Shown here one piece after another: positions 1-44,794 of a stretch of 64,000 nucleotides of DNA. Location: contig CAXHJY010000545.1 in the NCBI GenBank assembly GCA_964016885.1, positions 1 through 64,000 of the forward strand, given 5' to 3'. The position numbers and the translations under genes are program-made. Numbering within the stretch: position 1 is the first letter of the stretch; each line of letters starts with the position of its first letter. The notes below the pieces were generated by a model. It searched no databases. It had not been told where the DNA came from and saw only the letters and a list, made by a program, of their open reading frames with translations. The DNA comes from Eledone cirrhosa. Lineage: Eukaryota.

Positions 1-775
1 TATATATATATATATATATATATATATATATATATATATATATTATATATATATATATATATATATATATATGTATATATATATATATATGTATATATAT
101 ATATATATATGTATATATATATATATATGTATATATATATATATATATATATATGTATATATATATATATGTATATATATATATATGTATATATATATAT
201 ATATATGTATGTATATGTATATATATATATATATATATATGTATATATATATATATATATATATATGTATATATATATATATGTATATATATATATTTAT
301 ATATATATGTATATATATATATATATATATATATGTATATATATATATATATATGTATATATATGTGTATATATATATGTATATATATGTATATATATGT
401 ATATATATATATGTATATATATATGTATATATATGTATATATATATATATATATATATGTATATATATGTGTATATATATGTATATATATATATATATAT
501 ATATATATATATATGTATATATATGTATATGTGTATATATATATGTATATATATGTATATATATGTATATATATATATGTATATATATATGTATATATAT
601 GTATATATATATATATATATATATGTATATATATGTATATATATATATATATATATATATATATATATGTATATATATGTATATATATATATATATATAT
701 ATATATATGTATGTATATATATGTATGTATATATATGTATATATATATGTATATATATATATATGTATATATATA
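1..775. repeat. Degenerate (AT)n microsatellite with TATG variants
   Basis: Alternating TA with interspersed G. Confidence 0.98.
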
Positions 776-1635
776 TTGTTATATTTGGGGAGGGTCATAT
801 TTGCGTAATATTGCCAGAATTAATAACAGAACACACTCACTGTTTGGTTGGTTTTCGCTTCTCGCTGTCTTTTATATATATCTGCGATCTAACTTACTCG
901 GTCCTCAATGTTGCCATTGACTGACCGGCGGTCAAAAATAATACAGATACAATATAGACAAACACATATATATATAGTTTACATAATTTACATAAATCTT
1001 TCGTTGCACATCTGCAACATCGTCAGTGGTGTTATATTCATTGTTCCTCCTGTTGTGTTGTATGTCTACGCCATTTTTTTTTGTTCAGTCTGTCTATATA
1101 TTTATTTATTTATTTATTTGCTTGTTTGTTTATCTTATTTTATTTTGTCTTCTTTGCGCATGCGTTTGCGTGTGTGTATAGTGTTATGTGTGATGTGTGA
1201 CTAGTGTGTATAGTGTTGTGTCTGCTGGGTGGCTAGTGTGTGTTTATGTGCTTGTGTATGTATTTATATATCTTATTTTATTTATTTTATTTAATTTACT
1301 TATTTATTTATACTTCTCTTAGGTCAGTGTTGTTTGTTTTGGTGGTGTTGTTGTTGTTCCACTCATTCTTTCTGTTTAGCTTTGGTCTTCTAATTTCTAT
1401 TTCACTGGCCTCTCTGATTTGCCTATCTGCTGGGTCATTCCTATGTTTAGATATTATTCTAATTTCTATGTTGTCTATGTTACCGTCATGTTGTTGTCTA
1501 GCATGTTCGTATAGTACTGACCCGTTTTTTCGTCCTTTTAGTTCCCCCCAGTGTTGGTCTATCCTTTCACCTATGCTACGAGCTGTCTCACCTATGTATG
1601 TTGTTGTCGTGTTTCTGCAAGTACCCTCTGTACAT
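775..1635 (-). mobile_element. Penelope-like element family B, 5'-truncated copy (GIY-YIG C-terminus + 3' pLTR)
   Basis: Encodes [28 protein letters not shown]...LNRKNEW; near-identical to 12112-12973; both ends fused to (AT)n. Confidence 0.92.
989..1031 (-). ncRNA. Minimal hammerhead ribozyme-like motif in family B pLTR (second copy 12330-12372)
   Basis: Minus strand CUGACGA-U-GUUGCA(GAUG)UGCAAC-GAAA-GAUU-UA; core and 6-bp stem II clear, stem I weak. Confidence 0.7.
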
Positions 1636-4365
1636 ATATATATATATATATATATATATATATATATATATATATATACATATATATATACATATATATA
1701 TGTATATATATATATATATATATATATATATATACATATGTATATATATATACATATACATATGTATATATATATATACATATGTATATATATATATATA
1801 TATATATATATATATATATATACATATATATATGTATATATATATATATATATATATATATACATATATATATGTATATATATATATATATATATACATA
1901 TATATATGTATATATATATATATATATATATATATACATATATATATATATATATATATACATATATATATGTATATATATATATATATATGTATATATA
2001 TACATATATATATGTATATATATATATATATATATATGTATATATGTATATGTATATATATGTATATATATATAAATGTATATATATATGTATATATGTA
2101 TATATATGTATATATATATATATGTATATATATATGTATATACATATATATATATATATATGTATATATATATGTATATATGTATATATATATATATATG
2201 TATATATATGTGTATATATATATGTATATATATATATATATATATATATGTATATATATGTATATATATATATGTATATATATATATATATATATATATG
2301 TATATATATGTATATATATATATGTATATATATATATATATATATATATGTATATATATGTATATATATATATGTATGTATATGTATATATGTATATATA
2401 TGTATGTATATATATATATATATGTATATATATATATGTATATATATATGTATATGTATATATGTATATATGTATATATATGTATGTATATATATATATA
2501 TATGTATATATATATATGTATATATATATGTATATATATATATGTATATATATATATGTATATATATATATGTATATATATATGTATATATATATGTATA
2601 TATATATATGTATATATATATATGTATATATATATATGTATGTATATATATATATGTATATATATATATATACATATATATATATATATACATATATATA
2701 CATATATATATACATATATATATACATATATATATACATATATATATATATATACATATATATATACATATATATATATATATATATACATATACATATA
2801 TATATACATATATATATATATATACATATATATATATATACATATATATACATATATATATATATATATATATATATATATATATACATATATATATATA
2901 TATATACATATATATACATATATATATATATATATACATATATATACATATATATATACATATATATATATATACATATATATATACATATATATATATA
3001 TACATATATATATACATATATATATATATACATATATATACATATATATACATATATATATACATATATATATATATATATATATACATATATATATATA
3101 TACATATATATATATATATATATACATATATATATATATATATATACTTATATATATATATATATATATATATATATATATATATATACATATATATATA
3201 TATATATATATATATATATACATATATATATATATATATATATATATATATACTTATATATATATATATATATATATATACTTATATATATATATATATA
3301 TATATATATATATATATACATATATATATATATATATATACATATATATATATATATATATATACATATATATATACATATATATATATATATATATACA
3401 TATATATATACATATATATATATATATATATATATACATATATATATACATATATATATATATATATATATACTTATATATATATACTTATATATATATA
3501 TATATATATATATATATACTTATATATATATATATATATATATATATATACATATATATATATATATATATTTATATATATATATACATATATATATATA
3601 TATATATATATATACTTATATATATATATATATATATATATACTTATATATATATATATATATATACTTATATATATATATATATATATATACTTATATA
3701 TATATATATATATATATATATATATACTTATATATATATATACATATATATATATATATATATATACATATATATACATATATATATACATATATACATA
3801 TATATACATATATATATACATATATATATATATATATATATATACTTATATATATATATATATATATATATATATATATATATACTTATATATATATATA
3901 TATATATATATACTTATATATACTTATATATATATATATATATATATATATATATATATATATATATACTTATATATATATATATATATATATATATATA
4001 TATATATATATATATATATATATATATACTTATATATATATATATATATATATATATATATATACTTATATATATATATATATATATATACTTATATATA
4101 TATATATATATATACTTATATATATATATATATATATATATACTTATATATATATATATATATATATATACTTATATATATATATATATATATACTTATA
4201 TATATATATATATATATATATACTTATATATATATATATATATATATATACATATATATACATATATATATATATATATATATATATATATATATATATA
4301 TACATATATATATATATATATATATACATATATATATATATATATATATATATATATATATATAC
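1636..4365. repeat. Degenerate (AT)n array: mixed, then TATG, switching near 2670 to TACA and TACT variants
   Basis: Direct reading. Confidence 0.97.
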
Positions 4366-42700: not shown

Positions 42701-43583
42701 TCCTTTTCTTTTTAATCTTATTACTTTCCCTTATTTCTCTGATTTCTGTGCTACTGTCATTACTTGTTTTCTGTGTCTGTGTGTTTGTTAAGATTGTGGT
42801 GGTGGTGAGAGGCATTGAATGCGTGTGTGTTGTTGTTGTTGATGTGTGCTGTTGTTGATGTGTGTGTTGTTGTTATTGTTGTTTGTGTCTGTGTGTCTGT
42901 TGTTGTTGGGATGTGTGTTGTATATGTGTGTGTGTATATTGTTGCTTTTGTTTTTGATGCTCCAGTGTAGTTTTGTAAATGATTTTTCTATTTCTGACAG
43001 ACAACTAATCATATTTACCTTCTTGAATGTCGCAAATTTCGGCGGCAGACATAACACAGACATTTCATCATTATCTATTTTTGCGTTCCCATATATGTTG
43101 GTGTTTTTGTTGTTGAACTCTTCTGATAATGAGGTGTCGGCCATGTTGATACCGTCAATTTTGTCGGGATATCTATTGGTATACTCTATAGTATCCTGAT
43201 TTAGTTTCCTGTTAAAGTGCTTATCACATTCTTGAGTAATGTACTGTTCTTCAGGGCTTATAAGGCTTATAAATATTAGTTTCTCTCTTGGTTTGGTGAT
43301 CCTAGCTATTTCTTGTATTAGGTTACGCTTTTGTTTTTCTTGATTACTTAATTCTCTATAGATCTTCTTTTTTCTGTTTAGAATTAATGTTCGTTTTAGC
43401 CTATCTGCTTGTTTTTTGGTGAGTTGTAATCTTCTAACGTCGGTATTGATGGTGTTGGTGTAGATTCTGGACGAGGCACACAGCTTTATGAAGTATAGTT
43501 GTCGAGATGTTATGGTTTTTCGTAGACAACAGAACATGGTGGTTTTCAGTATCTTGTTAGCAAGGCTAAGGCTTACGATATTT
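39728..43583 (-). mobile_element. Family A near-full-length frameshifted copy (hammerhead 39894-39938)
   Basis: ORF pieces 42788-43537, 41376-42815, 40136-41347; ~23-bp deletion between catatgtt repeats near 41410; shorter Asn/His linker. Confidence 0.93.
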
Positions 43584-44794
43584 GGTACGGGTGATGAGAA
43601 ATGTGTCCCGCATGTGCAACCCCGAAGAACTAGAGAGACACATACAACACTTCATCCACCGTATGCAGTTCTCTGGCTACAATCAGAGAGATAGAATCAG
43701 AGTGTATACAGGAGCCAGAACCAAATGGGAAAAAATGGTAAATAATGACATAAATGGGACCTGCCCCTTGTATAAGAGCAAATTTTGGAATAGAATAGGA
43801 ACAAGGCCAATAGGCCTGATATAGGCCTGGTATGATAGCAATAAATACCAGAGTGTAATATTCATCAATACAACCCCTAGAGGCGAACTAGTCTACAAAT
43901 TTAGAAGGGCCCTAAATAAATATAAACTCAATATTAAGATAGTAGAAAGACCAGGTACCTCCGTAAAAACACATATTAGCAAGACATACCCGTTCCAAAG
44001 ACCCCCATGTATAGATAAGAAATGTATAACCTGTAAAATAAGCCCCCATGTTAACTGTAAAACTAGAAATGTAGTGTATAGCATAAGATGTACTGAAGGA
44101 CAATGTAGAAACAAAAATATAGTGTACATAGGTGAGACAGCTCGTAGTATAGGGGAACGGATAAATGAACACTGGCGAGACCTTCAAGATAATAAAGAAT
44201 CATCTGTATTCTACCAACATGCTAAAATAGAACACAAGGGTAAATTAGAGAACATAGATATAAAAATAGAATCCACACACAGAAAAGATGCAATGTTTAC
44301 GCAAATTACAGAGGCAGTAAGCATAAAAGAATTACAACCAAAATTAAATAGAAAATATGAGTGGAACAGCAACATCACAACTTACAATTAAGGACAAAAT
44401 GAAAACACACACACACATAGAACAAACAACCAACCAATAACATGTAAATAAATAAACAAATAGATAAATGAACACACACACACACAGACACCCGGATGTG
44501 GCGCGTGCGCAAACTGATCACACAACACACACACAGAAAGAAAATGGCGTAGGACAGAAGAAAGGAGAGGCACAGAAACAAAGAAAGGAATCCCCAGTCA
44601 CTGAAGAGGTCACAGAGTGTGTGACGAAAGGACTATGACTATATATAAACAACTATCTGGTTGTGGAACCAACCAACCAGAAATTTATAAATTTGTCGAT
44701 TTGTAAATTTATAAATATATAATAAATTGAAGTGAAAGCAACAGGTGCGTGTGTTTCTTATTGGCAACATGACCCTCCCAAAGAATAAAAATAT
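43580..44794 (+). mobile_element. Inverted family A 3' segment (thumb, GIY-YIG, pLTR)
   Basis: LVRVMRNVSRM...YIGETARS...YEWNSNITTYN on +; ends ATGACCCTCCCAAAGAATAAAAATATAT. Confidence 0.93.
44596..44640 (+). ncRNA. Minimal type I hammerhead ribozyme
   Basis: AGUCA-CUGAAGA-G-GUCAC(AGAGUGU)GUGAC-GAAA-GGAC-UA-UGACU. Confidence 0.85.

What the first reader, a model, noticed from the sequence alone, without database searches (positions are those of the whole stretch)
775..44794. PLE 3' ends break inside the first codons of their own ORF at AATAT microhomology with the target
Five termini (775, 12112, 30829, 39728, 44794) from both families end in ATG ACC CTC ... AAT A followed by (TA)n, reading MTLPKYNNI or a close variant. 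The sixth (4366) extends about 60 nt further into the ORF and again stops at AATAT. The families share this ~25-nt end although their pLTRs are otherwise dissimilar. Inference: the motif serves as both start context and primer-annealing site, and the start codon is only useful in a tandem or circular template.
Basis: partly seen in the sequence, partly recalled or inferred. Interest (0 to 1): 0.7.

Follow-up and report, generated by a model that had tools for sequence, protein, structure and literature searches.

The report
Penelope retroelement ends inside own gene
These jumping genes end a few codons into a fresh copy of their own gene start, which is the known anatomy of Penelope-like elements; the small extra is that both end points sit on four letters that match the repeated TA sequence the elements insert into.

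Summary
Six termini of two Penelope-like element (PLE) families abut (TA)n: five end 26 nt into the ORF start, one at 86 nt, all at ATAT. They come from five insertions and only two template sites. 3' ends inside the first codons, with an optional longer tail, are published PLE anatomy, explained by internal start of reverse transcription; the need for a tandem is also published. The 25 nt shared by the families reflect a conserved N-terminal peptide: synonymous identity (5 of 7 codons) equals background, and the pLTRs also share a hammerhead and other motifs. Not found in print: both sites carry 4-nt microhomology to the target (61 of 4229 positions do), and two distant metagenomic relatives break into (TA)n at the equivalent codon. 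Microhomology is not sufficient: a 14-nt AT run in the pLTR is used by 0 of 6 termini. Most likely the protein fixes the start site and a 4-bp pairing with the nicked (TA)n sets the register (inferred, about 0.5). A junction inherited from a master copy is the main rival. No genome-wide tally was obtained.

The parts
4877..8680 (-). Intact family A PLE ORF, 1268 codons from ATG at 8680: N-terminal domain, telomerase-like RT, C-x4-C-x2-C linker, C-terminal GIY-YIG nuclease
8595..8680 (-). Internal ORF start holding both end sites (AATATCG at +22 and +82; ends at +26 and +86); the 60 nt between them are the tail
8681..9103 (-). Upstream pLTR of the partial tandem (hammerhead core 8825-8853, TATA-like run), joined seamlessly to the ATG
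9104..10568 (-). 5'-truncated upstream unit of the partial tandem, 3 substitutions in 1974 nt against the downstream unit
10561..10717 (+). Short inverted arm from inside the RT region; meets the right-hand (TA)n tract at a 3-nt TAT microhomology
4366..4876 (-). Downstream pLTR plus 86 nt of ORF start (long, tailed 3' end), then G-variant (TA)n
773..1635 (-). Family B 5'-truncated copy; 3' end at +26 after ATG at 798; (TA)n on both sides
12110..15354 (-). Family B copy, broken ORF, N-terminus missing; 3' end at +26 after ATG at 12135; hammerhead core 12340-12367
30827..31369 (-). Family A pLTR fragment with 3' end at +26 (ATG at 30852) and a short inverted arm 31195-31369 (+)
39728..43586 (-). 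Family A near-full copy; 3' end at +26 (ATG at 39753); 5' start at about +81 to +85, on the second end site
43580..44794 (+). Family A inverted arm of the same insertion; 3' end at +26 (ATG at 44769); joined to the other arm through AAAT/ATTT microhomology

Best explanation
These are C-terminal-endonuclease Penelope-like elements that target (TA)n. The RNA template runs through the 3' pLTR into the next ORF start (tandem or terminally redundant transcript). The element's protein binds RNA around the ORF start and begins reverse transcription internally at one of two fixed places, +26 (usual; end of the pLTR) or +86 (tailed end). The GIY-YIG domain nicks a (TA)n tract, and the freed 3' end pairs with the four bases AUAU at the site, which sets the exact register. 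Shown here: the anatomy, the two sites, the microhomology, the conservation of the first site in distant relatives. Taken from the literature: internal initiation at two sites, priming from either strand, dispensable ribozyme cleavage (shown for a Poseidon element, not for this clade). Inferred: protein-defined position and functional pairing. The 25 nt are alike in the two families because they encode a conserved N-terminal peptide.
For: Only 61 of 4229 positions of the unit give 4 nt or more of overlap with (AT)n, 3 of the first 100; both end sites are among them. AATATCG occurs twice in the unit, exactly at the two sites. The off-site arm end at 10717 also has TAT (214 of 4229 positions give 3 or more). 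Both metagenomic relatives with a (TA)n-bounded 3' end (L002, L004; 43% and 40% identical to family A, 50% to each other) break 21-24 nt after an ATG that ranks 1 of 115 and 1 of 73 ATGs under an N-terminal profile built without the window. Both outer ends of the head-to-head insertion lie at +26, as expected if both target strands are primed from the same site (PMC11167929). The hammerhead cut lies 138 nt (A) and 194 nt (B) upstream of the ATG, so the template was not cut there. Left and right flanks share the tract variant in 4366-10714 (C type) and 39728-44794 (mainly G type), consistent with insertion into existing tracts. The near-full copy starts at +81 to +85 without any (TA)n, which marks the second site as a boundary in its own right.
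Against: Only two independent template sites in family A, and the probabilities are after the fact. For family B, L002 and L004 the internal sequence is unknown, so part of their AT may come from the target. In the one PLE tested in vitro the start site is reported as not homologous to the cut DNA (PMC11167929). Four A-U pairs are weak, and 14-nt and 8-nt AT runs in the pLTR are used by 0 of 6 termini. No stable, significant RNA structure was found at the sites (z = 0.41). 23 of 25 loci holding the ORF's C-terminal end have no (TA)n boundary and are uninformative or end elsewhere; L007 and L039 part 136 nt after the ORF-end motif, upstream of the hammerhead.
Confidence: 0.5

Rival explanations
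1. Inherited junction. A master copy ending at AATAT|(TA)n is transcribed into its flank, so the RNA carries an (AU)n tail that primes on other (TA)n tracts, as 3' microsatellite tails do in some LINEs (recalled). The breakpoint is then copied from the master, not chosen afresh.
For: At 44794 the first two tract interruptions are C while the distal tract has 0 C and 40 G, as if a short piece of donor tract came along. Four of six termini have 7-17 nt of pure AT after the junction.
Against: At 4366 and 39728 no pure AT follows the junction; in 5 of 6 termini the dominant proximal variant is that of the distal tract. The internal pLTR-ORF junction at 8680 is seamless, and a second end (+86) exists, identical to the internal ORF start (0 mismatches in 86 nt).
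Confidence: 0.2
2. The protein fixes the start region without pairing, as reported for the anole Poseidon element; the ATAT overlap comes from later trimming or repair at microhomologies between the new end and the unstable tract.
For: PMC11167929 reports homology-independent internal initiation. Inversion and 5' junctions in the window also show 2-6 nt microhomologies, so repair-type joining is common here.
Against: Trimming by microhomology should often reach the longer AT runs of the pLTR or the TATA at +19; none of 6 termini does. The same codon is used in relatives about 40% identical.
Confidence: 0.17
3. Circular template: the hammerhead cuts unit-length RNA that is circularised and copied round and round, starting at +26 or +86.
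For: Intact hammerhead in family A; tandem units differ at only 3 of 1974 positions; one copy starts at +81 to +85, about one unit from an end site; a 466-bp hammerhead array in the window shows a similar near-coincidence.
Against: Tandem or terminally redundant linear RNA explains the same structures; in PMC11167929 uncut RNA was the main substrate and no RNA-seq reads ended at the cut; stem I of the family B ribozyme pairs poorly by inspection.
Confidence: 0.1
4. Telomerase-like reiteration: the RT copies AUAU repeatedly and itself makes the (TA)n tracts next to the 3' ends.
For: The RT fold is closest to telomerase and the tracts reach 12.8 kb.
Against: Pure AT after the junction is only 0-17 nt; tracts are full of TG/CA variants and lie on both sides of the insertions.
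Confidence: 0.03

Closest known systems
PLE pLTR and tail (Penelope of Drosophila virilis; Pen2a of Adineta vaga, PMC3846280)
   Same: 3' pLTR runs into the first codons of the ORF (12 aa in Pen2a, 22 aa with the optional 31-bp tail); partial tandems; inverted 5' arms; transcription needs the tandem (PMC2377424).
   Different: Here the ends lie at codon 9 and codon 29, the tail is 60 nt rather than 30-40, and both ends overlap the (TA)n target by ATAT.
Poseidon of Anolis carolinensis (PMC11167929)
   Same: Two internal RT start sites in the 5' part of the ORF define the tail; AT-rich target; both strands extended; hammerhead cut not required.
   Different: Its start sites (about +111 to +118, AC-rich stem-loop) are reported as not homologous to the cut DNA; it lacks the Zn-finger linker found here.
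Nematis clade of PLEs (PMC8557442, Figs S1, S2, S7 text)
   Same: C-terminal GIY-YIG with CCHH, C-x4-C-x2-C linker followed after 7 residues by the next Cys, hammerhead in the pLTR.
   Different: RT3-RT4 spacing of 128-135 residues in this family (33 of 33 homologs measured) against about 63 in Nematis by eye; DKS for DKG; no tree with reference sequences was built.
Naiad, Hydra and Neptune PLEs (PMC8557442)
   Same: Insertion bias for (TA)n or other microsatellites, attributed there to the Zn-finger linker.
   Different: Naiad has an N-terminal nuclease and no hammerhead; Hydra lacks CCHH; Neptune has a long spacer after the linker. No RNA-target pairing is proposed in the sections read.
Athena and Coprina endonuclease-less PLEs
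   Same: Short stretches of the RNA complementary to a simple-repeat primer assist attachment (PMC8557442 introduction).
   Different: They have no nuclease and attach to telomeric overhangs; here there is a nuclease and the match is only 4 nt.

Membership tests
EN+ Penelope-like elements | RT most similar to telomerase | tested here: met
   Model of residues 520-1268 (mean pLDDT 89.3); the ten best Foldseek matches are all telomerases, best E 2.5e-9. Pfam found nothing on this ORF.
EN+ Penelope-like elements | Single ORF with GIY-YIG nuclease and CCHH motif | tested here: met
   VVY...C...C...YIG, later H-x4-H, read from the translation and invariant or nearly so in 42 homologs; compared by eye with Fig S2 text; no profile hit.
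EN+ Penelope-like elements | Partial tandem forming pLTRs, inverted 5'-truncated arms | tested here: met
   4366-10717 and 39728-44794.
EN+ Penelope-like elements | Hammerhead motif in the pLTR | tested here: met
   CUGANGA-stem II-GAAA in all 7 pLTR copies. Rfam did not report it; cleavage not tested.
EN+ Penelope-like elements | 3' end inside the ORF start with optional tail | tested here: met
   +26 in 5 of 6 termini, +86 in 1 of 6; tail of 60 nt is longer than the 30-40 bp in PMC8557442.
EN+ Penelope-like elements | Target-site duplication | not testable with these tools
   Hidden in the (TA)n tracts; no empty sites available.
Nematis clade | CX2-5CxxC linker with short spacer before GIY-YIG | tested here: met
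   C-IDKK-C-IT-C, 7 residues, C, 4 residues, VVY against Fig S2 rows.
Nematis clade | No insertion in fingers between RT3 and RT4 | tested here: not met
   Spacing 131 residues, 128-135 in 33 homologs, against about 61-63 for Penelope and Nematis counted by eye. Filed as Nematis-like only.
Nematis clade | Placement in the RT phylogeny | not tested
Hydra clade | CCHH absent, CxCX5C linker, under 3 kb | tested here: not met
   CCHH present, canonical linker, 4229-nt unit.
Naiad clade | N-terminal nuclease, no hammerhead | tested here: not met
   Nuclease is C-terminal, hammerhead present.

The most novel reading that the evidence does not exclude
A widespread, little-described clade of (TA)n-targeting, nuclease-bearing PLEs with a telomerase-sized insertion in the fingers starts reverse transcription telomerase-fashion: a protein-fixed internal site at the conserved Asn codon of its own N-terminal motif doubles as a short alignment region that pairs with the nicked (TA)n end, on either strand, while the segment +26 to +86 is a protein-bound element that can also stop an incoming RT. 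This would contradict the homology-independent initiation reported for Poseidon as a general PLE rule.
Probability: 0.3. Interest if true: 0.55.

Novelty: new variant of a known kind. Interest (0 to 1): 0.33.

Why it matters
How PLEs prime reverse transcription and why several clades favour (TA)n are open questions; the one in vitro study reports no homology between start site and target. This window supplies an intact ORF, two start sites defined to the base and a simple target, so the role of a 4-nt pairing can be tested directly. If the pairing matters it links nuclease-bearing PLEs to the template-primer alignment of telomerase and Athena. If not, the finding is the ordinary PLE tail.

Tried and rejected
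Genome-wide tally of breakpoints: no genome is held and no reads were laid, so it is open. No RNA holder listed among 24 runs, which says nothing about expression. Word-index searches with the N-terminal region found nothing (0 of 4365 candidates; 0 of 9); the full HMMER search found 107 proteins. The terminal motif had 0 matches in prokaryote genomes; 0 of 67 viral candidates were relatives. Rfam gave only spurious microRNA matches on the TA tracts. Extra nucleotide constraint on the first codons: rejected. A structured RNA element at the sites: not supported by folding, and no covariation test was possible with so few internal copies. Defining 3' ends of further relatives by comparing loci gave no usable boundary; of the 80 loci, the 59 stronger ones were examined for ends, and the 21 weak ones (E 1e-6 or worse) were left out, two of which hold unrelated TA runs. 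RT-made TA tracts: rejected as the main source. PDB sequence search gave only weak bacterial RT matches. Earlier scan notes: none.
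Full report
Observation. The window is a (TA)n-rich stretch holding copies of two related retroelement families. Family A has an intact 1268-codon ORF at 8680-4877 on the minus strand that begins [14 protein letters not shown]. Six termini next to (TA)n repeat this start. Measured against the family A ORF, five stop at +26 (window 773, 12110, 30827, 39728, 44794) and one at +86 (4366), each at ATAT. BLAST of both families against the window shows no other 3' ends. The 39728 and 44794 ends belong to one head-to-head insertion joined at 43580-43586, so the sample is five insertions and two template sites. 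The family B ORF start is never seen internally.

What the elements are. The best named homolog of the RT-nuclease region is an Octopus vulgaris protein, 68% identical, and three of ten N-terminal hits looked up are Octopus proteins; the host is probably a cephalopod (inference). A confident model (pLDDT 89.3) matches telomerases in its ten best hits. The C-terminus has a C-x4-C-x2-C linker and a GIY-YIG domain with CCHH; the pLTR has a hammerhead core in all seven copies; partial tandems and inverted arms are present. This is a C-terminal-nuclease Penelope-like element. The linker spacing resembles Nematis, but the RT3-RT4 spacing is 131 residues (128-135 in 33 homologs), twice that of Nematis, so I call it Nematis-like only.

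What is already known. [quoted passage not shown] For the anole Poseidon element, reverse transcription starts internally at two sites in the 5' part of the ORF, the tail is the stretch between them, both target strands are extended, ribozyme cleavage is not needed, and the start site is described as not homologous to the cut DNA (PMC11167929, parts 1-3 of 4 of the text read; its supplementary figures of in vivo junctions could not be seen, and may bear on microhomology). That Penelope needs a partial tandem for transcription is in PMC2377424 (passages). (TA)n bias of several PLE clades is in PMC8557442 (abstract, sections 3, 6, 11, 12, 15, passages, and supplement parts 54, 57, 58). So the headline, ends inside the first codons and a start codon useful only in tandem, is known anatomy.

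Why the families share 25 nt. A HMMER search with the first 240 residues found 107 proteins; several distant ones begin M-x-L-P-K-x-N, which confirms the ATG and shows protein-level constraint. Between A and B, 5 of 7 codons are identical, against 208 of 362 codons for identical residues in the RT and nuclease regions (P = 0.37). There is no sign of extra constraint on the DNA. The pLTRs are diverged but keep the hammerhead, AAAATGGCGTA and a TATA-like run in order.

Is the microhomology real? In the 4229-nt unit, 61 positions give 4 nt or more of overlap with (AT)n, three of them in the first 100 nt; the two end sites are two of those three. AATATCG occurs only at these two places. The inverted arm ending at 10717 joins the tract at TAT. 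A metagenome scan returned 80 loci; 25 of the 59 stronger ones hold the ORF's C-terminal end, and 2 of these are bounded by (TA)n. Both, L002 and L004, have a hammerhead-like core 68 nt upstream of an ATG, GCGTGT just before it as in family A, and break into (TA)n after M-V-L-x-x-I-N; these ATGs rank first of 115 and of 73 under a profile built without the window. The first site is therefore conserved across families about 40% identical. Against: the internal sequence of B, L002 and L004 is unknown; the other 23 loci are uninformative or end elsewhere; and 14-nt and 8-nt AT runs in the pLTR, far better partners, are used by 0 of 6 termini. Pairing may set the register but does not choose the site.

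Mechanism. Most likely (0.5) the protein binds RNA around the ORF start on a read-through template, the nuclease nicks (TA)n, and the freed end pairs with AUAU at +26 or +86. The ribozyme cut lies 138 nt upstream of the ATG in A, so the template was uncut or circular. Both outer ends of the inverted insertion at +26 fit priming from both strands, although its arms differ by 3.6%. The near-full copy begins at +81 to +85 with no (TA)n involved, which suggests that the second site is also a barrier; this is 1 of 6 family A 5' starts mapped and was noticed after the fact. Rivals: an inherited junction with an (AU)n read-through tail (0.2; one hint at 44794), homology-free start with later trimming (0.17), a circular template (0.1), reiterative synthesis (0.03).

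Novelty. Searches for PLE microhomology or annealing at microsatellites returned 0, 1, 0 and 0 papers; the one paper deals with 5' junctions and deletions. Other searches gave the papers cited. The library lacks most subscription papers, including the older PLE reviews. I rate this a new variant of a known kind: ordinary PLE ends with an unreported, testable overlap with the target. The genome-wide tally that would settle it was not obtained.

Noticed in passing
window 56777-64000: 466-bp array, 12.8 identical copies (-) plus an inverted arm from 62731 (+) running off the window; each unit has a hammerhead core; it abuts (TA)n at 56777. Looks like a non-LTR retrozyme (bioRxiv 10.64898/2026.07.22.740005, parts 1-2 of 5 read). 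The inverted arm starts about 13 nt before the site at which the other end meets (TA)n.
   Followed up: partly
window 8680-4877 (-), residues 719-850: RT3-RT4 spacing of 131 residues, conserved in 33 homologs, in a C-terminal-nuclease PLE; PMC8557442 describes such an insertion in fingers only for N-terminal-nuclease PLEs and telomerases. May mark an undescribed clade.
   Followed up: partly
window 8690-8700; L002 2563; L004 1741: GCGTGT just upstream of the ATG in family A, L002 and L004 (GAGTGT further upstream in B): a conserved non-coding element, candidate promoter or protein-binding signal.
   Followed up: no
window 7577-7949: Asn-rich, low-complexity insert in the N-terminal half of the family A ORF, also in family B; N-rich inserts are mentioned for Adineta Penelopes.
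   Followed up: no
window 35891-39178 (-): Long non-LTR RT ORF (Pfam RVT_1 and zf-RVT), flanked by TATG-type tracts.
   Followed up: no
window 28181-28879 (+) and 31291-32259 (-): Fragments of another LINE-like RT C-terminus (CR1/L2-like by eye), also next to (TA)n tracts.
   Followed up: no
L004 1790-1861: After the short TA run lies a reading KGLNFVPT, resembling the GxKF/Y-region of another PLE inserted in the same tract (motif identity recalled).
   Followed up: no
L001, L006, L019: Contigs with terminal direct repeats that run from pLTR into the ORF start: tandem or circularly permuted assemblies of relatives.
   Followed up: partly
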